Source: Candidatus Krumholzibacteriota bacterium (GTDB taxonomy: Bacteria > Krumholzibacteriota > Krumholzibacteriia > JAJRXK01). From it: a stretch of DNA of 64,000 nt. The translations under genes were made by a program, and so were the position numbers. Shown in pieces: positions 53,806 to 64,000 of the stretch. The DNA is taken from contig JAJDAC010000031.1 of NCBI GenBank assembly GCA_029262065.1, forward strand, positions 1-64,000, read 5' to 3'. The first letter of the stretch is position 1, and every line of letters begins with the position of its first letter. The notes beneath the pieces are model-generated. The model saw only the letters and a list, made by a program, of their open reading frames with translations, did not search any database and was not told the DNA's origin.

Positions 53806-54610
53806 ACTGCTAGCTGCGGTCGTGATTGGCCTGCTTGGGGCCGGTCCGGCGTCCGCGGGGTTTCTGGACGCCTACAAACCCCCGGTCGACATTTCCAAAG
53901 AGGGTCATCGCGTAGACTCATTGTTCTACGTGACCACCATCATGCTCCTCGTGCTGTTCGCGATTCTCTCGTACGTCCTGGTGGTGTCGAGCATCAGGCA
54001 TCGTGGCAAGAGTTCGCATCACGTCCACTTCCATCGCGGTCACGCGACACGCGATCTCACGATCGCGGCGGTTATCTCGGCCAGCATCTTCTTCGTGGTC
54101 GATGGTAACCTGCTCTACAACAGTTACGAAGACATCAACGATGCGTTCTGGAACTACCCCACCGAAGGCGATCTCACGCGGGTGCAGATCATGCCCCAAC
54201 AATGGGCATGGCGATTCCGCCTGCCGGGCAACGACGGGCAGTTCAACACCGCCGACGACATCGTCACGTTGAATGACCTGCGCATTCCGGTGGACAAGCA
54301 GGTGATAGCGCAGATGCAGTCAGCCGACGTGATCCATTCGTTCTTCCTGCCCAACGTGCGGCAGAAGATCGACGCAAACCCGGGGTCGGTTACCAAGATG
54401 ACGTTCACCCCCCTGCAGACTGGGGATTTCGAAGTGGTTTGCGCCGAGATGTGTGGACTGAACCACTACAAGATGCGCGCCGAGATGAAAGTTCTTTCGA
54501 CCGCTGACTATGCGAGATGGCACGAAGAGGCTTCGTTCTGGGCCTTGAGCGGGTTCGACGAGGAAGATGCAGAGGCACATTGGGGCTGGGATTGGGAGGC
54601 GAACGAATGA
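53789..54610 (+). CDS. coxB: Cytochrome c oxidase subunit II (CuA centre, no fused cytochrome c domain).
   Basis: Signal/TM N-terminus, two TM helices. CuA ligands appear in H..(FFLPN)...CAEMCGLNHYKM. Confidence 0.9.
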   Translation: MIPLRRLLAAVVIGLLGAGPASAGFLDAYKPPVDISKEGHRVDSLFYVTTIMLLVLFAILSYVLVVSSIRHRGKSSHHVHFHRGHATRDLTIAAVISASIFFVVDGNLLYNSYEDINDAFWNYPTEGDLTRVQIMPQQWAWRFRLPGNDGQFNTADDIVTLNDLRIPVDKQVIAQMQSADVIHSFFLPNVRQKIDANPGSVTKMTFTPLQTGDFEVVCAEMCGLNHYKMRAEMKVLSTADYARWHEEASFWALSGFDEEDAEAHWGWDWEANE

Positions 54611-56391
54611 GCGCGGACGCACATCACCACGAACCTGGATTCGTCGGGAAGTACATCTTCTCGATGGATCACAAGATGATCGCCAAGCAGTTCCTTTGGT
54701 TGGGTCTGGTGGGACTGGCCGTGGGTGGCCTCATGGCCATGCTCATGCGGTGGAATCTAGCCAACCCCGGCGAGGCCGTGCCGCTGGTGGGAAACATGCT
54801 CTTTCCCGATTCCGGCGGTGTCATCCCGCCCGACGCCTACGCTTCGTTGTTTACGATGCATGGCACGATCATGATCTTCTTCGCCATTACGCCGCTGCTC
54901 ATCGGGTGTTTTGGCAACTTCTGTATTCCGCTGATGATCGGCGCGCGGGACATGGTGTTTCCGTTGCTGAACATGTTGTCGTTCTGGACCGCGGCGCTGG
55001 CCAGCGTGTTCATGTTCGGCTCGATCTTCGTGCCGCTGGGTGGTGCGGCTTCGGGATGGACCGCGTATCCGACCCTGAGCACCAACGTGGGTTTGCCCGG
55101 GCTCGGAATGACCATGTGGGTCGTGGCCATCTTCCTTATCGGAACGTCGTCGATCATGGGCGCGGTGAACTACATCACCACCGTCATCCGGTTGCGCGCG
55201 CCGGGCATGGGCTACTTCGACATGCCGCTCACGGTGTGGGGTCTTTGGCTTACCGCCATCCTCAACGCCTTGTTCGTACCGGTGATTGCCGCGGCCATGG
55301 TGCTGCTGTTTTTCGACCGGGTGTTTGGGACCCAGTTCTTCGCCGCCGGTTCAGCCGTGGTGGACGGCACCGGCGACCCTATTCTCTACCAGCACCTCTT
55401 CTGGATCTTCGGCCACCCCGAGGTCTACATCCTGATTCTGCCGGCCTGGGGTGTGGTGAGCGACCTGCTCTCGTTCTTCAGCCGCAAGCCCGCGTACGGA
55501 TACAAGATCACTGCATTGGGCATGACCGCTGTGACCGTGTTGAGCGCCGTGGTCTACGGTCACCACATGTTCTCCACCGGTCTGAGTCCACTGCTGGGGC
55601 AGAGCTTCATGGTGCTGACCATGATCATCAGTGTGCCGGCCGAGATCTTCTTCCTTAACTGGTTGCATACCATCTGGAAGGGCAGGATCCGCATGGCTAC
55701 GCCCATGCTGTTCTCGCTGGGCGTGGTGTTCGTGTTCGGGCTGGGTGGACTTACCGGGTTGTACCTGGCGTCGATCAGCACCGATCTGTATCTGCACGAT
55801 ACGTACTTCGTCGTGGGTCACTTCCATCTGACCATGGCCGCGGCCGCGTTCCTCGGCTTCTTCGCCGGCCTCTACTATTGGTTTCCCAAGTTCACTGGCC
55901 GCATGCTGAACGAGAACCTGGGTAAGATCCACTTCGCCGGCTCGATCATCACCATCACGATCGTGTTCTGCGGCATGCTGCTGCAGGGTTGGGCGGGCAT
56001 GCATCGCCGGATCTACGACCACAGCGTGTACACGTACCTGCAGCACCTCGCGCCCATGACCAATATCATCACGCACTCGGCGTTGACGCTGGGTTTCTTC
56101 CAGCTGTTTTTCGTGGTCAATTTCTTCCGTAGTTGGTTTGCCGGAGAGAAAGCGCCAGAGAACCCGTGGCAGGTTGGTACATTGGAATGGGCGACATCGA
56201 ATCCTATTCCCCACGGCAACTTTGAGCATATCCCCGTGGTATTCCGTGGTCCGCACGAGTTCAACAATCCCGATTACGCCCACCTGGGTCGCGACTGGGT
56301 GGCGCAATGGGAGCAGCTGCCCGGTGATCCGTCACCCGAAGAGCGCATCGCCTCGACGCATGTGCCGGCGCCGCAGGCCGCGCACAGCTAG
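54607..56391 (+). CDS. coxA: Cytochrome c oxidase subunit I (haem-copper oxidase catalytic subunit).
   Basis: ATG 54607 overlaps the coxII stop (ATGA). Canonical blocks: WLGLVGLAVGGLMAMLMR, HGTIMIFF, ILYQHLFWIFGHPEVYILILPAWG, HHMFSTG, VGHFHLTMAAAAF. The track ORF start at 54517 is an upstream in-frame extension. Confidence 0.95.
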   Translation: MSADAHHHEPGFVGKYIFSMDHKMIAKQFLWLGLVGLAVGGLMAMLMRWNLANPGEAVPLVGNMLFPDSGGVIPPDAYASLFTMHGTIMIFFAITPLLIGCFGNFCIPLMIGARDMVFPLLNMLSFWTAALASVFMFGSIFVPLGGAASGWTAYPTLSTNVGLPGLGMTMWVVAIFLIGTSSIMGAVNYITTVIRLRAPGMGYFDMPLTVWGLWLTAILNALFVPVIAAAMVLLFFDRVFGTQFFAAGSAVVDGTGDPILYQHLFWIFGHPEVYILILPAWGVVSDLLSFFSRKPAYGYKITALGMTAVTVLSAVVYGHHMFSTGLSPLLGQSFMVLTMIISVPAEIFFLNWLHTIWKGRIRMATPMLFSLGVVFVFGLGGLTGLYLASISTDLYLHDTYFVVGHFHLTMAAAAFLGFFAGLYYWFPKFTGRMLNENLGKIHFAGSIITITIVFCGMLLQGWAGMHRRIYDHSVYTYLQHLAPMTNIITHSALTLGFFQLFFVVNFFRSWFAGEKAPENPWQVGTLEWATSNPIPHGNFEHIPVVFRGPHEFNNPDYAHLGRDWVAQWEQLPGDPSPEERIASTHVPAPQAAHS

Positions 56392-56394
56392 AAC

Positions 56395-56982
56395 ATGGGA
56401 GCCGTATTGACATCCAACGGGAGTCCGGCCGGCGAAGACCGGTGGACATCCTACCTGGGCATGGTCGTAGCCGTGGCTTCGTGGGGCATGCTGTTCGCCG
56501 CGTTGTTGCTTTCCTACGTGTTGCTGCGGGTACAGCAGCCGGTGTGGCCTCCTTTGGGGAGTCCACCGCTGCCGTTGGGATTGGCCGTCGCGAATACCGC
56601 GGTGCTCTTGTTGAGCAGCGTGGTCCTGAGCTGGGGCGGGCGCAAGTTGGGGCGCGGAGGTCGCGAGGAATTCCACGTGGCGCTGCAATGGACCATTGCG
56701 TTGGGGATTGTGTTTCTGGGCTTGCAGCTTCGACTGTGGCAGGCCACGCACGCCAATGGGCTGGGTCTTACCCACATTTTTGGCGGCATGTTCTACGTAC
56801 TTACCTGGGCTCATGCCGCGCACATCGTGGCGGGACTGGGGGCATTGCTATGGCTGGTACCGGGTTCGCGTCAGCGCACCTACGGCCCCGAGCGTCGTGC
56901 CCGCGTCATGATGGTGTCGTTGTTCTGGCATTTTCTCGATGTGGTGTGGGTCGTGATGTTCGTTGCTATATTCGTTGTCTAA
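56395..56982 (+). CDS. Second haem-copper-oxidase subunit III-family protein (short, 5-TM).
   Basis: Ends ...VMMVSLFWHFLDVVWVVMFVAIFVV, the subunit III C-terminal signature. It starts 4 nt after the coxI stop. Confidence 0.7.
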   Translation: MGAVLTSNGSPAGEDRWTSYLGMVVAVASWGMLFAALLLSYVLLRVQQPVWPPLGSPPLPLGLAVANTAVLLLSSVVLSWGGRKLGRGGREEFHVALQWTIALGIVFLGLQLRLWQATHANGLGLTHIFGGMFYVLTWAHAAHIVAGLGALLWLVPGSRQRTYGPERRARVMMVSLFWHFLDVVWVVMFVAIFVV

Positions 56983-57000
56983 CCGTTCTGGGAGGAACGC

Positions 57001-57927
57001 GTGTCAACTCACAAGATCCTAAGCGCGCTGCTGGTTGCCCTGATCCTGGCGGGTGGCTGCGCCAACAGTGACGACTTCAAGGAAGCAATCGTGCTGGGCG
57101 GGCAGGAAGTCCAGCCTGAAGTCCTGAACCTTGGTCATGACACCTACATAGCGTACTGCCGGGCCTGTCACGGCGTGAACGGCGACGGCAAGGGTCCCGC
57201 GTCCAAGGGTCTGCGTCCGCCTCCCCGTGACTTCCGTCAGGGCGTGTTCAAATTTGCGAACGTCGAAACGGGCTATCTGCCGCGCGACGAAGATCTCCAG
57301 CGGATCGTCCGTCACGGACTCGGCGGCACGGCCATGCTTCCGTGGGACATCAGCGACGATCGGCTCGATGCTGTCATCCAATACATCAAGACGTTCTCGG
57401 AGTTGTGGGTCGACGAGTTCGAAGAAGTGGGCGAGGAGATCGTGGCGGGCACCGACCCGTTTGGCGCGGCCCGGCGCGACGAGGCCGTGGAAATGGGCAA
57501 GAAATTGTACCACGCCCTGGCGCAGTGCAATTCGTGTCACCCCTCATACATTTCCTACCAGGAGATCTACGACGCCGGCGTGGAGATGACCGGTTCGGGC
57601 AACACCGACCTGGGTCCGCATTCCTACGCCGTCGAGCTGAAGGACAGCGACTACGACAGCAAGTTGTTGCCGCCCGACTTCACGTTCCATCTGGTGCGTT
57701 CCGGTGAGAGTACCGAAGCCATCTTCCTGGCCATTGCTTCGGGAATCGGCGGCACTGCGATGCCCACGTGGAAGGGCTCGCTTCCCGACGATCAGATCTG
57801 GGCCATGGCGTACTACGTGCGCAGTCTCATCGAAATTCGCGACACCAGCGAGGCGCTTGCCTTGAAGCAGCGGTTGCGCAATCAGCCAGCCTGGGTGGCG
57901 CCGGCCGACACCGACGGGGGACGCTGA
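57001..57927 (+). CDS. Dihaem c-type cytochrome lipoprotein.
   Basis: Lipobox LILAGGC. Two CXXCH motifs (CRACHGVNG; CNSCHPSY), each followed downstream by a Met ligand region (GGTAMLPW / GGTAMPTW). Confidence 0.8.
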   Translation: MSTHKILSALLVALILAGGCANSDDFKEAIVLGGQEVQPEVLNLGHDTYIAYCRACHGVNGDGKGPASKGLRPPPRDFRQGVFKFANVETGYLPRDEDLQRIVRHGLGGTAMLPWDISDDRLDAVIQYIKTFSELWVDEFEEVGEEIVAGTDPFGAARRDEAVEMGKKLYHALAQCNSCHPSYISYQEIYDAGVEMTGSGNTDLGPHSYAVELKDSDYDSKLLPPDFTFHLVRSGESTEAIFLAIASGIGGTAMPTWKGSLPDDQIWAMAYYVRSLIEIRDTSEALALKQRLRNQPAWVAPADTDGGR

Positions 57928-57928
57928 C

Positions 57929-58636
57929 GTGGCGTCTCCCATGGGGCTGGCCGCACGGCTTACCGGTAGTTGGGTGTTCTGGGTCCTGTTGCTTTCATCG
58001 GCGTTTGCCATGCCCATCATTCGCTCGGTCACGCGTGAGTTGCCGGCGGCGCCCACGGTGTACGGCGAAGTGCCCGCCTTCGAATTCATCCGGCAGGACG
58101 GCTCAACGCTCAGCCGCGACGATCTCCGTGGCAAGATCTGGGTGGCCAACTTCATCTTCACCAGTTGCTCAGACGTGTGCCCCGGCCTGAGCTCGCGCAT
58201 GCGCGAAATCCAGAATCGCATGGACAAGATGGGCGACGCCGTCCATCTGGTTTCGTTCAGCGTCGACCCGGCCCGCGACACGCCTGAGAAGTTGCAGAAG
58301 TACGCCGCCCGTTTTCAGGCCCGCCCCGATATGTGGTCGTTCGTGACCGGTGACATGGAGGCCATCCAGAGCGTGGTCGAAGACGGTTTCAAGCTGGGCC
58401 TGGAAGCCACCGAGGTGGAGGACACCGGGTTCTTCAACATTGTCCACGGCGAACGGTTTGTACTGGTCGATCAGCTTGGCCAGATACGTGGCTACTTCCG
58501 CGCCAACGACGAAGAAATCCAGCGACTTCTGAACACCGCGGGTCAGTTGGGCAACATGGGTCCGGTGTCTCCCACCGAAACCGACGTCGACCCGGCCCAG
58601 GATCCCACCGCGCCGCCGCAGGTCTCCGTACACTAG
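57929..58636 (+). CDS. SCO1/SenC copper chaperone (thioredoxin fold, CxxxC).
   Basis: FTSCSDVCP copper-binding motif, and a conserved His in the DTPEKLQKYAARF...HGERFVLVD region. It follows the cytochrome gene by 1 nt. Confidence 0.85.
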   Translation: MASPMGLAARLTGSWVFWVLLLSSAFAMPIIRSVTRELPAAPTVYGEVPAFEFIRQDGSTLSRDDLRGKIWVANFIFTSCSDVCPGLSSRMREIQNRMDKMGDAVHLVSFSVDPARDTPEKLQKYAARFQARPDMWSFVTGDMEAIQSVVEDGFKLGLEATEVEDTGFFNIVHGERFVLVDQLGQIRGYFRANDEEIQRLLNTAGQLGNMGPVSPTETDVDPAQDPTAPPQVSVH

Positions 58637-58670: not shown

Positions 58671-59570
58671 CTAGCGTCGCTCTTCGTACACGGCGGGGTC
58701 CTGCCCCCTAAGCATCGAGTTGCCTTCGTAGAGATCGCCGGCCGCCACGCGAGTCGGTGTTTCCAACGTGGCCCGGTCGAGCCGACCGGTCTGCCCGAAG
58801 AACTCGATGGGATTGTTCCAGACCAGCTTGTCGACGTCGCTGGCTTTGAATCCCGATTCCAGCATGAGTTTGGCCGTCTTGGGTACCATCAGCGGGTCGC
58901 TTACTCCCCAATCGGCGGCGCTGTTCACGATCATCCGGTCGAGCCCGTATTCCTTGAGAATGGGGATCATGCGCGCGGGGCTCATCTTGGTGTTCGGGTA
59001 GAGTGAGAAGCCGCTGACACAACCCAGCTCGTGCGTGATCTTGATGGTTTCTTCGTTGCCGTGGTCCAGAAGCACGCGCTCCATGGAAATGCCGGATTCA
59101 CGCACGATGTCTACACTGCGCTCGAAGCCCACCTTCTTGTCACGGTGGGGCGTGTGGACCAGAATCGGCAGGTCGTGCTTGATGGCCAGTTCGATCTGCG
59201 CCTTGAAGTATTTTTCTTCCTTGGGGGTCTGGTCGTCCAAGCCAATTTCACCGACCGCCACGACGCCGTTCTTCTCGAGGAACCGGGGCAGTACGGCCAT
59301 CACGTCGTCGTTCACGCGGTCGTCGTTGGCCTCGCGCGGATTCAGGGCCATGGTGCAGACATGGTGGATGCCGAATCCCGCCGCGCGGTGCCTTTCCCAC
59401 CCCAGGAGTGTGTCGAAGTAGTCGATGAACGACCCCACGCTGGTGCGGTTCTGGCCGAGCCAGAATGCGGGTTCGAGTACTACACGAATTCCCGCTTCGT
59501 ACATGCGTTCGTAGTCGTCGGTGACGCGGCTGATCATGTGGATGTGTGGATCGAAGATGCGCATCGGCAA
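58671..59570 (-). CDS. TatD-family metal-dependent hydrolase (amidohydrolase-fold TIM barrel).
   Basis: MRIFDPHIHM (HxH), GEIGLD, ILVHTPH and DHGNEE metal-ligand blocks typical of the TatD/PF01026 family. Confidence 0.7.
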   Translation of the reverse strand: MPMRIFDPHIHMISRVTDDYERMYEAGIRVVLEPAFWLGQNRTSVGSFIDYFDTLLGWERHRAAGFGIHHVCTMALNPREANDDRVNDDVMAVLPRFLEKNGVVAVGEIGLDDQTPKEEKYFKAQIELAIKHDLPILVHTPHRDKKVGFERSVDIVRESGISMERVLLDHGNEETIKITHELGCVSGFSLYPNTKMSPARMIPILKEYGLDRMIVNSAADWGVSDPLMVPKTAKLMLESGFKASDVDKLVWNNPIEFFGQTGRLDRATLETPTRVAAGDLYEGNSMLRGQDPAVYEERR

Positions 59571-59578
59571 AGTTCCTT

Positions 59579-60505
59579 TCAGCCCAGCTCTTGCAGGGCC
59601 AGGGCGAGTGCTTCGCGCACGCGCGGATGTCGTTCGCGACCCTCTCGCTGGGTCAGGTAGTCGCGTAGTTCAGAATTCTTCATGGCCGCCACGGCTTGGA
59701 CCGCGGCCAGGCGTACCGCGTCGTCGCCGTGTTCCAGGTGGCCCACCACGCGGGCCGTGGTACCGGCCACCGGAGCTCGCGCAATGAGGTGGAGGGTGTC
59801 AAGCCAGACGCTGCGTCCGGCCGCTTCGCGCTCGGTGGCGAAGTCCTGAAGCATACGGCTCAGATCGCCGTTGGCACGGTCGACCGCTCCGAAGACCCGG
59901 GCCAGTGGCAGATCGCAAAACGCGATCTTCAGGATCATGCGATTGAAATCGTCCTGGGGGAGGTAGGTCGAAGCCAGATCGTGGTCGAACCAGGCCGCTT
60001 CGAACAAATCGGACGTGTTCGTGCGTTGGGCTTCACGCATGAAATCCAGGACCACGTTCAACTCGGCAATGAACGGCATGCAACGCATTACGCTCACGCG
60101 CTCGTCCAGGTCGCCCTGGTCGAAGAGGGTCCGCAGCAGGTCAGATTCGTGACCGGCGTCGATGGCCGAGGTCACCAGAAGGGCGGCCGCCGCGTCGGCG
60201 ACGCGCCACGCGGCCAGATCCAGGCGGTAGGAATCGGTGGCCACGAAGCGTCCCTCGTGGTCCAGCGGAACCAGCGGCGTCGCGCCACAGCGTCGCACCA
60301 GCGCCGGAAAAGCTACCTCCAGCGCATGTTGCCCCTTGTCGATGGCATCCAGCTCGGCCGCGCTCCACCATTGCCGGGCGGGTTCGGGCAGCCCCGTCAG
60401 GAAGAGATGGCGGATGTGGGCGAGGGCGCCCTCGGCGCTCTTTGTTTCTTTCGTGGTCATGCCGTCAGTGTAACCAGCGAACCATGTTGGCTCAACGCGG
60501 ATCAC
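59579..60505 (-). CDS. Hypothetical protein with C-terminal HEAT-like repeats (possibly EboA-like; speculative).
   Basis: 308 aa. The C-terminus DDAVRLAAVQAVAAMKNSELRDYLTQREGRERHPRVREALALALQEL is HEAT/PBS-lyase-like. It lies 8 nt upstream of the TatD-like gene and overlaps the DUF523 gene stop by 4 nt. Confidence 0.45.
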   Translation of the reverse strand: MIRVEPTWFAGYTDGMTTKETKSAEGALAHIRHLFLTGLPEPARQWWSAAELDAIDKGQHALEVAFPALVRRCGATPLVPLDHEGRFVATDSYRLDLAAWRVADAAAALLVTSAIDAGHESDLLRTLFDQGDLDERVSVMRCMPFIAELNVVLDFMREAQRTNTSDLFEAAWFDHDLASTYLPQDDFNRMILKIAFCDLPLARVFGAVDRANGDLSRMLQDFATEREAAGRSVWLDTLHLIARAPVAGTTARVVGHLEHGDDAVRLAAVQAVAAMKNSELRDYLTQREGRERHPRVREALALALQELG

Positions 60506-61080
60506 ACTGCCTCAGCCAGAAGGCGTTTCCAGTCCCAAAGGGGAGGCAGCCCCGCGGCGCCCGATCGGCGATGCCAGCGCACGAGAACCTGTTCCAGGAA
60601 CAGGCGCCGGAGATCGCGGTGCGCGAGCTGATCCTCCCTTGCGGTGGGGAGGCTGGGGTCGTTGCGCAACACCGCGCCCGCGAATACGCCCCAGGTGGAT
60701 CCCACTACCTCACCGCGATCGTTGTGAAGGGGAACGGTATGGGTGCCGCAGCTTGGTGACCGGTCCTTGAACACGAACCCGTCGATTTGAGCCTGGTTCA
60801 GCCTGGAAATGAACGCGGTGGCGACTGCTTCCACACTGGAGGTCACGTCGATGCGGGTCTCACGACCCACCATGCGGACGCCACCTCCAAGTGCACGCAA
60901 TTGCACTGGCTCGCGCGGTGTCCCCAGACCAGCCTCCACTTCGGGGCAGACCACGAGCCACTCGACGCACTCAGACAGTCGAAGAGTAAGAAACTCTTGA
61001 GCCTTGTGGCCTCCGTCGTAGCGGACCGGTTCGCCCAGTAGGCAGGCGCTCACGCCCAGACGAGGTCGTTTCGATTCCAT
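60502..61080 (-). CDS. DUF523 family protein (TudS-like Fe-S desulfidase family).
   Basis: LGVSACLLGEPVRYDGGHK...CPEVEAGLGTPREP...SPSCG. The conserved Cys residues and N-terminal motif are typical of DUF523. Confidence 0.65.
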   Translation of the reverse strand: MESKRPRLGVSACLLGEPVRYDGGHKAQEFLTLRLSECVEWLVVCPEVEAGLGTPREPVQLRALGGGVRMVGRETRIDVTSSVEAVATAFISRLNQAQIDGFVFKDRSPSCGTHTVPLHNDRGEVVGSTWGVFAGAVLRNDPSLPTAREDQLAHRDLRRLFLEQVLVRWHRRSGAAGLPPLWDWKRLLAEAV

Positions 61081-61171
61081 GGCACCACTATAGACGATGA
61101 GCGCGCTCCCGTGACACCGTGTACGCCCCTGCGATAGACTCTACCCGCGCCTAGCCTGAGCATCCTTGGAC

Positions 61172-61177
61172 AAGGAG
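61172..61177 (+). promoter_or_regulatory. Shine-Dalgarno AAGGAG upstream of the LanB-like ORF.
   Basis: AAGGAGttcttccCTG. The only in-frame codon at canonical spacing is CTG 61185. There is no ATG, GTG or TTG in frame between the upstream stop (TAG 61152-61154) and the conserved LanB N-terminal block. Confidence 0.35.
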
Positions 61178-61184
61178 TTCTTCC

Positions 61185-64000
61185 CTGCCGCCGCTTCAGT
61201 TCGTCCCATCTGGGTTTGTCGCCCTGCGATCCCCGTTGCTTTCGTTCCATGAGCTGGAAGAGTGGACGAGAGACCTGCACGGGACCAATTCGCACGCGGA
61301 TCTGGCGAAGTACCGTGCAGATGTGGACCTGGTTCGCCAGCGCCTGCGCGAAGCCCTGCGGCATCCGATGGTGCAGGAGGCTCTGTTTCTCGCATCACCA
61401 TCTCTCCACGAGCGCGCGGCCGTCTGGCTCGAAGACCCCGAGCGTGAGGAGGCGTTGGGAATCGAAGCGGGCCTTGTCCGCTATTTCACACGCATGGCCT
61501 CGCGAAGCACGCCGTTCGGTCTCTTCGCTGGCAATAGCGTGGGCTCGGTCGGGCACGAGACCGTGTTGCGATTGCAGGCGGCCAAAGATGCCGTGCGCCA
61601 TACCCGTCTGGACACCGAATACCTGGATGCCGTCATCGCGCGGCTGGTGGCCCAGCCCGATATTCGTGCCGTGTTGACGTTTCGAACCAATACCAGCTTG
61701 TACGAGGTAGGCGAGACCATCCGATACGCGGAGGCGCGCCTGGTGCAGGGCCGTCGGGCGTACTTCCTGGTCGATGTGGAGTCCCATGCGCATCTGCGCC
61801 GCGCCCTGGTCGTCGCGGACAACGGGGCGACACCCGACGAGCTGGCCCGGGCCATTTCCGACGAAGACGTTCCGATTGAAACTGCCCGTGACTTCGTGGA
61901 CCAGCTGATCGATGCCCAATTGCTGACGGTGGATCTGGGGCCGGTCATTACAGGACGAGGCGCCGTCGAGTACCTGCTGGATCGACTCCAGCGAGTCGCA
62001 GCTGACTGTGAACCGGTGGCCAACGCAGTGCGCGTTCTTTCTGCCGTGCAGGGCAAGTTGGCCGACTTCGACGCGGCGGGGGTGGGGCAACTGGCAACCG
62101 AGTACCGCCAATTGGTGTCGACCGCGCGCAGCTTGGCCGAGGTTTCGGCGTCGAGGTTCGTGCAGGTGGATGTGGCCAAACCCATGGATGCCCTGACCGT
62201 GGCATCCAATCTGGTGGACGAGTTGGCGCGAGGCGTCGATGTTCTTGTCGACCTGTTTGCGTACGGGCGCGACGATCCCTTGGCTGAATTTCGGCGGGCG
62301 TTCGAAGCCCGCTACGGCGAGAGAACCATCCCGTTGGTGGAGGTCCTGGATGAAGAAATGGGAATCGGGTACGGTGCGGCGCAAGGTCCTGGGACCGACC
62401 CCTCGCCGCTCCTGGCGGGGCTGCCGTTTCCCGCGGAACAGGAAGATGAGACCGTAGGTTGGGGCAGTCGAGGCCGATACCTCCTGTGGCGCGTGGCCGA
62501 AACGATCGAGGCGGGCCAGGACGAGTTGGTGCTCGATCCGCGTGAAGTCGCGCGTTTTCGCGATCCCGGTGCGCCGCGTCTGCCCAACGCCTATCACATC
62601 ATGGCCAGTCTGCTGGCCGAGGATCCGAACAACTCCGACGCCCCACGCGCCGTGCTTGATTCGGCGGGCGGTCCGTCGGGCGCGCGCCTGTTGGGCCGTT
62701 TTTGTCACGTGGACGACGAGCTGCAGCTGAGAGTTCGTGAGCACCTGCAGGCCGAGGAGCAGCTCGATCCCGGCGTCCGATTCTTCGAACTTGTTCATCT
62801 ACCCGAAGGTCGCGTTGGAAACATCCTGGCTCGACCGCTGTTGCGAGACCTGGAGTTGGAGTACCTGGGTACGTCGGGGACGAGTGTAGGCAAACGACTT
62901 CGTATTACGGATCTCACGCTGTCCGTGGCGGGCGGACGCGTGGTACTTCGCTCTCGCCGGCTGGGCTGCGAGGTGCGTCCGCGGATAACATCGGCCCACA
63001 ATACCCAATGGCGCAGCTTGGGCATCTATCGGTTCCTCAGTGCGCTGCAAGCCGAAGGACATGTCGAGGGAGTCGCTTGGACGTGGGGTCCGCTCGAGAG
63101 TCAACCGCGACTGCCGCGGGTTCGGATGGGCTCGTTGATCCTGAGCCGCGCCCGCTGGAACGTGCCGGCACCCGAAATGAAGGAGCTGGTCGCGACGGGA
63201 CCGTCGATCGCCGAACGACATGGTTCATTCACGCGCGTCCAGGCGTGGCGCGCGAAGCGAGGGCTGCCCCGGTGGATCGGGTTGGTAGACCAGGACAATG
63301 TGCTGACCGTCGACCTGGACAATCCCCTGTCGGTCGCATCGTTGCTCGACGCGCTGCGCAGCCGCAAAGAAGCGACGTTCCAGGAACTGCATCCGGGAGC
63401 GCGTTCGGACGCGGTGACGGGGCCGGAAGGGTGCTTCGTGAACGAAGTAGTCATACCGATGGTACGACGGGCCAAGTCTGACGTAGTCCCACGCGCCGAA
63501 CCGCCGCATCAATCTGAGCGACGCATCGGCGCGTTCGCGCCGGGTTCGGCGTGGATGTCGGCCAAGATCTACGCCGGTCCGGGGCAGTGCGACGCTTTGC
63601 TTACCGACGTGGTGGAGACGGTTTCGCGGAAAGCGCTGGCCACGGGAGTTGCAAGAAGGTGGTTCTTCCTGCGCTACGCCGATCCCGACTGGCACCTGCG
63701 TGTGCGATGGGAGGGTGAACCGGAGCCCATGGCGGCCGAGTTGTTGCCCGCGTTGCATGCTGCCCTCGCACCATGGCTCGAAGATCGACGCGTCCACCAA
63801 CTTCAGTTGGATACGTACCAACGCGAAACACGCCGCTACGGCGGACCCGAGGCAATCGGTGCGGCGGAGGATATCTTCTACCACGATAGTGTGATGACGA
63901 CGGCATTCCTGGCCTTGGCCAGCGGCGACGATGGGCTCGACGCCCGGTGGCGCTTCGCTCTGGTAGCCATGGACCGGCACCTGGATGATTTCGGTCTGGA
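61185..64000 (+). CDS. Class I lanthipeptide-type (LanB-like) dehydratase, full-length type (N-terminal glutamylation domain plus C-terminal SpaB_C elimination domain). It is 3'-truncated by the window end and its start codon is uncertain.
   Basis: It is not in the ORF track because there is no stop before 64000. The frame is open from 61155 to 64000 (more than 938 codons). Hallmarks seen in my own translation: FVALRSPLLSFHELEEW (N-terminal F.vRtPLLP block), VRYFTRMASRSTPFGLFAGNSVG (compare NisB YLRSTPFGLFSETSIG), FFELVHLPEGRVGNILARP, and near the end RRWFFLRYADPDWHLRVRW...ETRRYGGPEAIGAAEDIFYHDS (compare NisB LFFLRYTDPKPHIRLR...ERYGG). The 467-aa track ORF 61395..62798 on the minus strand is its antisense mirror. 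Confidence 0.8.
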   Translation, partial: MPPLQFVPSGFVALRSPLLSFHELEEWTRDLHGTNSHADLAKYRADVDLVRQRLREALRHPMVQEALFLASPSLHERAAVWLEDPEREEALGIEAGLVRYFTRMASRSTPFGLFAGNSVGSVGHETVLRLQAAKDAVRHTRLDTEYLDAVIARLVAQPDIRAVLTFRTNTSLYEVGETIRYAEARLVQGRRAYFLVDVESHAHLRRALVVADNGATPDELARAISDEDVPIETARDFVDQLIDAQLLTVDLGPVITGRGAVEYLLDRLQRVAADCEPVANAVRVLSAVQGKLADFDAAGVGQLATEYRQLVSTARSLAEVSASRFVQVDVAKPMDALTVASNLVDELARGVDVLVDLFAYGRDDPLAEFRRAFEARYGERTIPLVEVLDEEMGIGYGAAQGPGTDPSPLLAGLPFPAEQEDETVGWGSRGRYLLWRVAETIEAGQDELVLDPREVARFRDPGAPRLPNAYHIMASLLAEDPNNSDAPRAVLDSAGGPSGARLLGRFCHVDDELQLRVREHLQAEEQLDPGVRFFELVHLPEGRVGNILARPLLRDLELEYLGTSGTSVGKRLRITDLTLSVAGGRVVLRSRRLGCEVRPRITSAHNTQWRSLGIYRFLSALQAEGHVEGVAWTWGPLESQPRLPRVRMGSLILSRARWNVPAPEMKELVATGPSIAERHGSFTRVQAWRAKRGLPRWIGLVDQDNVLTVDLDNPLSVASLLDALRSRKEATFQELHPGARSDAVTGPEGCFVNEVVIPMVRRAKSDVVPRAEPPHQSERRIGAFAPGSAWMSAKIYAGPGQCDALLTDVVETVSRKALATGVARRWFFLRYADPDWHLRVRWEGEPEPMAAELLPALHAALAPWLEDRRVHQLQLDTYQRETRRYGGPEAIGAAEDIFYHDSVMTTAFLALASGDDGLDARWRFALVAMDRHLDDFGL

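What the first reader, a model, noticed from the sequence alone, without database searches (positions are those of the whole stretch)
61150..64000. Edge of a RiPP (lanthipeptide-like) biosynthetic locus: full-length LanB-type dehydratase running off the window
A >938-codon open frame that the ORF track misses entirely carries the diagnostic LanB blocks. These are the RSTPFGLF glutamylation-domain motif and the WFFLRYADPDWHLRVRW...RRYGG SpaB_C elimination-domain motif. This is the only secondary-metabolite-type gene in a window otherwise made of housekeeping, envelope and respiration genes. It sits on the opposite strand from a TatD/HEAT/DUF523 operon. LanB-type enzymes are poorly characterised outside Firmicutes and Actinobacteria, and in a GC-rich Gram-negative lineage (inference) the product is likely novel. 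No precursor peptide, LanC, YcaO or transporter gene is visible. Either they lie downstream beyond 64000, or this is an orphan or repurposed LanB (for example a PEARL-like amino-acid-adding enzyme or a thiopeptide-type dehydratase).
Basis: partly seen in the sequence, partly recalled or inferred. Interest (0 to 1): 0.85.

Follow-up and report, generated by a model that had tools for sequence, protein, structure and literature searches.

The report
Class I lanthipeptide gene cluster edge
The open frame at the window's end is an intact LanB dehydratase that starts an ordinary five-gene class I lanthipeptide cluster, probably from an uncultured Eisenbacteria-like bacterium; its cyclase, exporter and a strongly conserved but uncharacterised precursor peptide lie just past the window.

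Summary
Frame 61155-64000 (+) is open for 948 codons and hits Lant_dehydr_N (2e-142) and Lant_dehydr_C (6e-41, cut by the window end).

Two Logan contigs of the same sample carry the sequence about 5.8 kb past 64000; the first matches the window over 4,567 bases with no mismatch. All genes found on them share the window's 95,972-bp NCBI contig. LanB ends at window-equivalent 64409. It is followed by:
- a 188-aa membrane-fusion adaptor that lacks the alpha-hairpin;
- a C39-peptidase ABC exporter;
- convergently, lanC and a 52-aa precursor, VKIEVKKLELNRKTLRCLTETETKQVEGAA/QTTKCPCTHTSSRPNNSCLIFC.

All NisB residues known to matter for activity, the LanC zinc ligands and the C39 triad are conserved. 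Five related genomes carry the same cassette in different flanks. Their precursors are 85-92% identical while their LanB proteins are only 51-59% identical.

The leader (LxLxRx5L, ending in Gly-Ala) is of the type already described for Bacteroidetes class I lanthipeptides. PEARL-like, thiopeptide, orphan and pseudogene readings are rejected.

This is a new member of a known kind, with an uncharacterised product. Minor oddities are a probable CTG start codon, the small adaptor and the very conserved core. Interest is about 0.3.

The parts
61111..61140 (+). Promoter-like site (GTGACA-18 nt-TAGACT) in the 104-nt divergent intergenic region upstream of lanB
   Evidence: The consensus scan found 1 site where 0.1 is expected from shuffles. 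This is weak evidence: a pattern match only.
61172..61177 (+). Shine-Dalgarno sequence AAGGAG, 7 nt upstream of the in-frame CTG at 61185
   Evidence: Read directly from the sequence.
61185..64000 (+). lanB coding sequence, a class I lanthipeptide dehydratase. The probable start is CTG at 61185. The only canonical in-frame start is TTG at 61236, which is the one the gene callers used. The gene runs off the window and ends at window-equivalent 64409 (1074 aa from CTG, 1057 aa from TTG).
   Evidence: The frame is open. The identical Logan contig extends the gene to its stop.

Partner genes past the window, in window-equivalent coordinates:
- mini membrane-fusion protein, 64406-64972 (+)
- PCAT (lanT), 64972-67137 (+)
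- lanC, 67097-68401 (-)
- GC-rich hairpin in the lanA-lanC spacer, about 68402-68487
- lanA, 68488-68646 (-)
61215..61235 (+). Conserved N-terminal strand FVALRSP, the equivalent of NisB F11-V13-R14. It lies upstream of the TTG start at 61236.
   Evidence: Homologues begin before PSGFxALRTPLLP; for example P0004 starts MPPLPARPSGFFALRTPLLP, against L-PPLQFVPSGFVALRSPLLS here. The NisB R14A mutant is impaired (PMC4341554).
61362..63344 (+). Glutamylation domain (Lant_dehydr_N). Residues are numbered from the TTG start, with the first base of each codon in brackets: Y83 (61482), R86 (61491), R90 (61503), T92 (61509), D126 (61611), D312 (62169), R488 (62697).
   Evidence: PF04738, E 2.1e-142, aa 70-730 of the frame. 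Residues were mapped to NisB Y80, R83, R87, T89, D121, D299 and R464 through the profile-to-PDB alignment.
63552..63998 (+). First part of the glutamate-elimination domain (Lant_dehydr_C / SpaB_C). It carries R822 and R824 (63699, 63705) and E864 and R867 (63825, 63834). The catalytic His1018 lies past the window.
   Evidence: PF14028 with E 6.2e-41 and TIGR03891 with E 5e-43. Residues were mapped to NisB R784, R786, E823, R826 and H961.

Best explanation
The frame is lanB, the first gene of a compact and complete class I lanthipeptide gene cluster arranged as lanB, mini-MFP and lanT(PCAT) facing a convergent lanC and lanA.

Proposed mechanism:
1. The 52-aa precursor LanA has a leader with the motif L-E-L-N-R-x5-L (LxLxRx5L), ending in Glu-Gly-Ala. 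Its core is about 22-23 residues long, (A)QTTKCPCTHTSSRPNNSCLIFC, with 7 Ser/Thr and 4 Cys.
2. LanB recognises the leader. Its N-terminal domain transfers glutamate from Glu-tRNA(Glu) onto Ser/Thr side chains. Its C-terminal domain eliminates the glutamate to give dehydroalanine or dehydrobutyrine.
3. The zinc enzyme LanC adds the Cys thiols to these residues, forming up to four (methyl)lanthionine rings.
4. The C39 cysteine-peptidase domain of the ABC exporter removes the leader after Gly-Ala. The exporter then secretes the peptide, assisted by a 188-aa membrane-anchored adaptor that lacks the alpha-hairpin.

Shown here: gene identities, domain integrity, conservation of catalytic residues, and conservation of the cassette and of the precursor across genomes.

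Inferred: the chemistry (by homology to NisB/NisC and PCATs), the cleavage site, the ring number, and any bioactivity. The host lineage, probably Candidatus Eiseniibacteriota, is inferred from the labels of the nearest homologues.
For: LanB domains are detected with E 2e-142 and 6e-41.

Contig extension. An identical Logan contig (0 mismatches over 4,567 bp) extends the frame to a stop at 64409. It adds a 188-aa gene overlapping lanB by 4 nt and a C39-ABC gene overlapping that by 1 nt. A second Logan contig from the same sample overlaps the first by 29 nt, in frame through the Walker A motif. It carries the end of the PCAT, LanC (PF05147) and the 52-aa precursor. LanB, LanC, the adaptor, LanA and nine window proteins are all recorded on one 95,972-bp NCBI contig.

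Catalytic residues. The equivalents of NisB Y80, R83, R87, T89, D121, D299, R464, R786, R826 and H961 are all present, and they are invariant among 10 relatives. LanC has SHGIPG, WCYGDPG and CHGSAG, which correspond to NisC H212, C284, C330 and H331. The PCAT has Cys22, His95 and Asp111.

Conservation. The same cassette occurs in five related genomes with unrelated flanks. The precursors are 85-92% identical across it.

Leader type. The leader matches the LxLxKx5L + GG + C39 type described for Bacteroidetes class I LanAs (PMC7268733). It also hits NCBIfam lant_leader_L1a weakly.

Closest solved structures are all full-length class I dehydratases: MadB 9G04 (3e-83), MibB (1e-67) and NisB (8e-45).

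Against: - There is no canonical start codon upstream of the conserved N-terminal strand. Expression of a full-length LanB depends on a rare CTG start, or else on a truncated product from the TTG start.
- The join between the two Logan contigs rests on a 29-nt overlap, reading-frame continuity and shared contig-length metadata. The 96-kb record itself was not read.
- The leader's match to the curated class I leader model is below its cut-off (14.8 bits against 22).
- The leader ends in Gly-Ala, not Gly-Gly.
- No immunity, regulator or LanP gene is present.
- No experimental data exist for any member of this precursor family.
Confidence: 0.9

Rival explanations
1. This is an orphan or repurposed LanB: either a PEARL-like enzyme that adds amino acids, or a thiopeptide-type dehydratase that works without LanC.
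For: NCBIfam names the C-terminal domain 'thiopeptide-type bacteriocin biosynthesis' (TIGR03891). No partner gene is visible inside the window itself.
Against: The glutamylation and elimination domains are fused in one polypeptide, and all elimination residues are present. PEARLs lack the elimination domain, and thiopeptide LanBs are split. LanC and a Cys-rich precursor sit 2.7-4.2 kb downstream, and the arrangement is conserved in five relatives. No YcaO or other azole-forming gene occurs in any of the cassettes. The solved thiopeptide enzymes match only weakly (TbtB 9e-9, TsrE 6e-8), against 1e-67 to 3e-83 for the full-length class I LanBs MibB and MadB.
Confidence: 0.02
2. The cluster is a decaying relic in this genome: lanB has lost its start codon and is not made as a functional enzyme.
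For: There is no ATG, GTG or TTG between the upstream stop (61152-61154) and TTG 61236. The TTG lies after the conserved FVALRSP strand, which contains the equivalent of NisB R14.
Against: - The frame stays open for 1074 codons from CTG 61185, in DNA of 63% G+C.
- Every catalytic residue is intact.
- A consensus AAGGAG lies 7 nt before an in-frame CTG. That CTG aligns with the ATG of homologue P0004.
- The four partner genes are all intact.
- Start/stop overlaps of 4 nt and 1 nt suggest translational coupling, which would indicate a working operon.
Confidence: 0.05
3. The cluster is active, but its product is a conserved signalling or physiological peptide and not an antibiotic used against competitors.
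For: The precursor is nearly invariant (85-92% identity; core CPCTHTSSRPNNSC[LP]IFC), while LanB is only 51-59% identical and LanC about 58%. No immunity genes (lanI, lanFEG) occur in any of the six cassettes. The core lacks the nisin-type lipid II motif SxxxCTP(G/S)C quoted in PMC7268733.
Against: Structural peptides being better conserved than their enzymes is also usual for antibiotic lanthipeptides (my own knowledge, not tested here). A producer with an outer membrane may not need immunity genes; that the host has one is an assumption. No regulator or receptor gene is linked to the cassette. Nothing here tests function.
Confidence: 0.2

Closest known systems
Class I lanthipeptide clusters of Gram-negative bacteria with double-glycine-type leaders (Bacteroidetes family with the LxLxKx5L leader; Ped15.1/15.2 of Pedobacter lusitanus, thalassomonasins, viridisins, pinensins)
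   Same: Separate LanB and LanC enzymes. The leader carries LxLx(K/R)x5L in place of FNLD and ends in a Gly-Gly-type site. A C39-peptidase ABC transporter is encoded in the cluster. LanP is absent (PMC7268733; PMC9680876).
   Different: The motif has Arg where the described motif has Lys, and the leader ends in Gly-Ala and not Gly-Gly. The leader scores below the cut-off of NCBIfam lant_leader_L1a. The core has no Pfam or NCBIfam family even at E<=10 and was not found in any searched paper text. The host is probably a different candidate phylum, Eiseniibacteriota. The adaptor is a 188-aa protein lacking the alpha-hairpin, not a full HlyD.
Nisin system (NisA/NisB/NisC/NisT/NisP)
   Same: LanB has two domains and all residues important in NisB (Y80, R83, R87, T89, D121, D299, R464, R786, R826, H961). 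LanC has the His and Cys/Cys-His zinc-site motifs.
   Different: The match to NisB is distant (phmmer 4e-18, profile 8e-45). The leader motif differs. The leader is removed by the exporter's C39 domain and not by a subtilisin-type NisP. There are no NisI/FEG immunity genes or NisRK regulators. The core is unrelated and lacks the lipid II-binding rings A/B motif.
MadB (maddinglicin dehydratase, PDB 9G04) and MibB (microbisporicin dehydratase, PDB 5EHK)
   Same: These are the best solved-structure matches, and they align over almost the full length (3e-83 and 1e-67 with the family profile).
   Different: Sequence similarity is low. The hosts are a Clostridium and an actinomycete, and the precursors are unrelated.
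Periplasmic adaptor / membrane-fusion proteins (MacA, EmrA, ZneB, HlyD family; the hairpin-less BesA)
   Different: The protein is only 183-188 aa, and 80 aa in one relative. It has no alpha-helical hairpin, and no Pfam or NCBIfam HlyD model detects it. It therefore probably cannot reach an outer-membrane channel.
Split LanBs of thiopeptide pathways (TbtB, TsrE) and small LanB/PEARL enzymes
   Same: They share the Lant_dehydr_N or SpaB_C folds and the Glu-tRNA-dependent chemistry.
   Different: Here both domains are fused in one polypeptide. LanC and a lanthipeptide-type precursor are present, and there are no azole- or pyridine-forming genes. Matches to TbtB and TsrE are only 9e-9 and 6e-8.

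Membership tests
Full-length class I lanthipeptide dehydratase (LanB) | N-terminal glutamylation domain (PF04738) | tested here: met
   E 2.1e-142, covering profile positions 2-649 of 649.
Full-length class I lanthipeptide dehydratase (LanB) | Glutamate-elimination domain (PF14028 / SpaB_C) fused in the same polypeptide | tested here: met
   E 6.2e-41 within the window. The complete protein P0001 carries both domains and ends at window-equivalent 64409.
Full-length class I lanthipeptide dehydratase (LanB) | Residues shown to matter in NisB: Y80, R83, R87, T89, D121, D299, R464 (glutamylation) and R786, R826, H961 (elimination) | tested here: met
   They correspond to Y83, R86, R90, T92, D126, D312, R488, R824, R867 and H1018. 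All are invariant in 10 relatives.
Full-length class I lanthipeptide dehydratase (LanB) | Glu-tRNA(Glu)-dependent dehydration of Ser/Thr in a precursor peptide | not testable with these tools
   This needs co-expression or an in vitro assay with mass spectrometry.
Class I lanthipeptide biosynthetic gene cluster | A stand-alone LanC cyclase with zinc ligands next to LanB | tested here: met
   P0137 has PF05147 and is on the same 95,972-bp contig. It carries H219, C285 and C334-H335, which align with the NisC active-site residues.
Class I lanthipeptide biosynthetic gene cluster | A precursor with a leader and a Ser/Thr/Cys-rich core | tested here: met
   A 52-aa ORF lies 86 nt upstream of lanC. 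Its core has 7 Ser/Thr and 4 Cys. It is conserved in at least 21 database sequences.
Bacteroidetes-type class I LanA (LxLxKx5L leader, GG site, C39 exporter) | LxLxKx5L leader motif | tested here: met
   The leader reads L-E-L-N-R-KTLRC-L, that is LxLxRx5L with Arg in place of Lys. L8, L10, R12 and L18 are invariant in 16 precursors.
Bacteroidetes-type class I LanA (LxLxKx5L leader, GG site, C39 exporter) | Gly-Gly-type leader end together with a cluster-encoded C39 peptidase | tested here: met
   The leader ends VEGA|A; Gly-Ala is an accepted variant of the double-glycine site (my own knowledge). The PCAT has PF03412 with E 7e-30 and Cys22, His95 and Asp111. Actual cleavage was not tested.
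Bacteroidetes-type class I LanA (LxLxKx5L leader, GG site, C39 exporter) | Match to the curated leader model NCBIfam NF038153 lant_leader_L1a above its cut-off | tested here: not met
   14.8 bits (E 0.023) against a cut-off of 22. The second precursor of relative L012 scores 18.4 bits. The leader resembles the family but is not a curated member.
Thiopeptide pathway (split LanB) | Separate glutamylation and elimination proteins together with YcaO/azole-forming and pyridine-forming enzymes | tested here: not met
   There is a single fused LanB. No YcaO gene occurs in the target cassette or in five relatives.
PEARL (small LanB) | Glutamylation-like domain only, with no elimination domain | tested here: not met
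   The elimination domain is present with its catalytic residues.
HlyD / membrane-fusion protein family (the 188-aa gene) | N-terminal membrane anchor, lipoyl/beta-barrel domains and an alpha-helical hairpin, detectable by the HlyD models | tested here: inconclusive

The most novel reading that the evidence does not exclude
The cassette may make a lanthipeptide scaffold unrelated to any characterised one. The core, (A)QTTKCPCTHTSSRPNNSCLIFC, could form up to four rings and ends in a C-terminal Cys. It has stayed almost unchanged across divergent Eisenbacteria-like genomes while the enzymes diverged to about 55% identity. No immunity genes are linked to it. On this reading the peptide serves a conserved lineage-wide role, such as signalling or a single conserved molecular target, rather than being an ordinary strain-level weapon. 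It would be exported through an unusual pairing of a PCAT with a membrane-fusion adaptor that lacks the alpha-hairpin.
Probability: 0.15. Interest if true: 0.55.

Novelty: new member of a known kind. Interest (0 to 1): 0.3.

Why it matters
The result extends experimentally untouched class I lanthipeptide machinery to an uncultured candidate phylum. It also supplies a complete, compact five-gene cassette and a very well conserved 52-aa precursor that could be synthesised and expressed heterologously straight away. If the product has an unusual ring pattern or target, it would add a new lanthipeptide family.

Otherwise this is a routine genome-mining hit. The enzymology, the leader type and the export logic are all already described. 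The probable CTG start and the 188-aa adaptor that lacks the alpha-hairpin are small annotation and biology points, not discoveries.

Tried and rejected
- An exact 51-mer from the window end was searched in genome contigs and gave no match.
- The search for related loci with LanB in genome contigs returned only distant LanBs (28-40% identity; Mycobacterium, Bacteroidales). These were not useful for context.
- The look-up of encoding contigs never returned the 95,972-bp NCBI record, only two short Logan contigs. The downstream region therefore had to be joined from a 29-nt overlap.
- For the 188-aa protein, the following all failed: Pfam and NCBIfam at E<=10; a profile search against PDB sequences, which gave only chance aquaporin hits; the word-indexed homologue search, which found only the protein itself; and a single-sequence AF2 model with pLDDT 43.5. 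It was resolved only by the exhaustive phmmer search together with an alignment-based model.
- The window was searched for a second precursor by tblastn with 8 precursors and by a leader regular expression. Nothing scored better than E 0.1.
- PEARL, thiopeptide, orphan and pseudogene readings were considered and rejected (see the rival explanations).
Full report
**Observation**

The frame that starts at 61155, right after a TAG stop at 61152-61154, stays open to the last base of the window: 948 codons. It is missing from the ORF list only because that tool omits ORFs that run off the source.

- RSTPFGLF at 61503-61526
- WFFLRYADPDWHLRVRW at 63660-63710
- RRYGG at 63831-63845

Pfam gives Lant_dehydr_N with E 2.1e-142 over the whole 649-position profile. 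It gives Lant_dehydr_C with E 6.2e-41 over profile positions 1-145 of 255, truncated by the window end. NCBIfam TIGR03891 matches the same C-terminal stretch. G+C is 63-64%, the same as the flanks, so there is no compositional island.

**Extending the locus**

The DUF523 gene next door led to Logan contig SRR15505514_37655 (7,102 bp). It is identical to window 59434-64000, with 0 mismatches over 4,567 bases, and continues 2,535 bases further. On it:
- LanB ends at window-equivalent 64409.
- A 188-aa gene overlaps the LanB stop by 4 nt (64406-64972).
- A gene with Peptidase_C39, ABC_membrane and ABC_tran domains starts at 64972, overlapping by 1 nt.

A homologue search with the LanC of a relative picked out P0137. 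This is a 434-aa LanC whose longest contig is 95,972 bp, the same figure as for LanB P0001. P0137 lies on a second Logan contig of the same sample (3,318 bp). The reverse complement of that contig overlaps the end of the first by 29 nt and continues the ABC gene in frame through the Walker A motif (GPSGSGKST|LARL).

The joined PCAT is 721 aa, against 701-729 aa in relatives. Downstream, on the minus strand, come:
- lanC at window-equivalent 67097-68401
- an 86-nt spacer
- a 52-aa ORF at 68488-68646
- an aconitase gene

Exact-sequence look-ups place LanB, the 188-aa protein, LanC, the 52-aa peptide and nine other window proteins on a contig of 95,972 bp. The partners are therefore on the window's own contig.

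**The precursor**

The peptide is (V/M)KIEVKKLELNRKTLRCLTETETKQVEGAAQTTKCPCTHTSSRPNNSCLIFC.
- The leader carries L-E-L-N-R-x5-L and ends in Glu-Gly-Ala.
- The core has 7 Ser/Thr and 4 Cys.
- Walker et al. (PMC7268733) describe exactly this alternative class I leader in Bacteroidetes: LxLxKx5L in place of FxLD, a Gly-Gly end, and a C39 protease encoded in the cluster.
- NCBIfam's class I leader model lant_leader_L1a matches weakly, below its cut-off (14.8 bits against 22).
- No Pfam or NCBIfam family matches the core, and no searched paper text contains the core string.
- The peptide's 90%-identity cluster has 21 members. Those that carry a name are called 'hypothetical protein', and all with an organism label are from Candidatus Eisenbacteria MAGs.
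- No precursor-like ORF exists inside the 64-kb window.

**Enzyme integrity**

A profile of LanB and nine relatives was aligned to NisB (PDB 4WD9). The NisB residues reported as important (PMC4341554) map as follows, numbering from the TTG start:

| NisB residue(s) | Residue(s) here |
|---|---|
| Y80, R83, R87, T89 | Y83, R86, R90, T92 |
| D121 | D126 |
| D299 | D312 |
| R464 | R488 |
| R784, R786 | R822, R824 |
| E823, R826 | E864, R867 |
| H961, R966 | H1018, R1023 |

All of these are invariant in the ten sequences.

The best solved relatives are full-length class I dehydratases:
- MadB 9G04, 3e-83 (identified in PMC12241602)
- MibB, 1e-67
- NisB, 8e-45

Thiopeptide enzymes match only marginally: TbtB at 9e-9 and TsrE at 6e-8.

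LanC carries SHGIPG (H219), WCYGDPG (C285) and CHGSAG (C334-H335). These align with the NisC acid/base His and the zinc ligands. The PCAT has the C39 residues Cys22 (CGPAC), His95 and Asp111.

**The 188-aa protein**

No Pfam, NCBIfam or PDB-sequence match was found. An exhaustive phmmer search found 167 relatives. Most are about 180-200 aa. The longer ones are HlyD-family membrane-fusion proteins (HlyD_3, Biotin_lipoyl_2, TIGR01843, NHLP-bacteriocin HlyD), matched over their N-terminal anchor region.

The top Foldseek hit is BesA, which as far as I recall is an adaptor that naturally lacks the alpha-hairpin. I therefore read the gene as a minimal adaptor without an alpha-hairpin for the PCAT. 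One relative has only an 80-aa stub, so only the anchor is strictly conserved.

**Conservation elsewhere**

The 26 closest LanB homologues (47-59% identity) include several labelled Candidatus Eisenbacteria. Five of their loci were read. All have lanB, the small adaptor, a PCAT, a convergent lanC and a 48-55-aa precursor. The flanking genes are unrelated in each.

The precursors are 85-92% identical to the target's, and the core CPCTHTSSRPNNSC[LP]IFC is nearly invariant. LanB is 51-59% identical and LanC about 58%. One relative carries a second, divergent precursor just upstream of lanB. Three JGI metagenome loci encode the same peptide family; one has a shorter core.

The lanA-lanC spacer holds a strong GC-rich hairpin in the target (-36 kcal/mol, z -2.8). 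A hairpin sits at the same place, with a different sequence, in the relatives; it scores clearly above shuffled sequence in three of the six folded. This resembles the attenuators common after lanA genes.

**Mechanism**

By homology, the pathway runs as follows:
1. LanB glutamylates the core Ser/Thr residues using Glu-tRNA(Glu) and then eliminates glutamate to give dehydro residues.
2. LanC closes up to four thioether rings.
3. The C39 domain of the exporter cuts after Gly-Ala.
4. The ABC exporter, with the mini-adaptor, secretes the peptide.

Gene identity, residue integrity and conservation of the cassette are shown. The chemistry, the cleavage site, the ring number and the bioactivity are inferred. 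No LanP, LanI/FEG, LanRK or tailoring genes are present in any of the six cassettes.

**Start codon**

The only canonical in-frame start, TTG at 61236, lies after the conserved strand FVALRSP (61215-61235). The Arg in that strand corresponds to NisB R14. Homologues all start before PSGFxALRTPLLP. An AAGGAG at 61172-61177 sits 7 nt before an in-frame CTG at 61185. That CTG aligns with the ATG of homologue P0004: MPPLP... in P0004 against L-PPLQ... here. A CTG start giving a 1074-aa protein is therefore likely. A weak promoter-like site lies at 61111-61140.

**Verdict**

The open alternatives (orphan, PEARL-like, thiopeptide-type, pseudogene) are rejected.

The system is a canonical class I lanthipeptide cluster of the Gram-negative, double-glycine-leader type already described in Bacteroidota and Gammaproteobacteria (PMC7268733; PMC9680876). 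Here it is found in a probably Eisenbacteria-like MAG, a lineage for which no lanthipeptide paper was found. General biosynthetic potential of that lineage has been noted (PMC7298704).

This is a new member of a known kind. Interest is about 0.3.

Noticed in passing
window 61152-61238: lanB has no canonical start codon upstream of its conserved N-terminal strand. A consensus AAGGAG (61172-61177) lies 7 nt before an in-frame CTG (61185), which suggests a rare CTG start. The gene callers used TTG at 61236, which removes the residue equivalent to NisB R14.
   Followed up: partly
It is followed by a TatD-like hydrolase (58671-59570) and preceded by a DUF523/2-thiouracil-desulfurase-family gene (60502-61080). 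This looks like a partial ebo-type metabolite-traffic gene pair. The other ebo genes (eboC-eboF, from my own knowledge of the published cluster) are not adjacent: the next gene is SCO1 on the other strand.
   Followed up: partly
window 61395-62798 (-): A 467-aa ATG-initiated ORF lies antisense inside lanB. It is most likely a shadow ORF of the kind common in GC-rich DNA, not a gene.
   Followed up: no
L014 1335-1426 (window-equivalent about 68399-68490); L010 17375-17452, L016 14927-14998, L017 15431-15514, L020 8145-8225: The lanA-lanC spacer carries a strong GC-rich hairpin of 11-16 bp at the same position in the target and its relatives, but with different sequences. In some relatives a U-rich tract follows. 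It looks like the attenuator or processing hairpin typical downstream of lanA genes.
   Followed up: partly
L012 9792-9974 (-): One relative has a second, divergent precursor directly upstream of lanB: MLKLGVKKLELNRSTVRNLTAAESKNVKGALPSIVCGSRASACCPCTGTSTIGPTQPLIC. It keeps the leader and the CPCT motif. No counterpart exists in the window.
   Followed up: yes
precursor alignment A3 (target lanA at window-equivalent 68488-68646): The leader contains a nearly invariant Cys (LRCLT), which seems unusual for a lanthipeptide leader. The whole precursor is 85-92% identical across genomes whose LanB proteins are only 51-59% identical.
   Followed up: partly
L016 11237-11479: In one relative the adaptor gene is only 80 aa: the anchor and C-terminal tail, with the beta-rich domain deleted. 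The ectodomain may therefore be dispensable, or that copy may be decaying.
   Followed up: no
window 54517-58636 (+): A respiratory block lies just upstream of the divergent operon: COX1, COX3, a dihaem cytochrome c and SCO1/SenC.
   Followed up: yes
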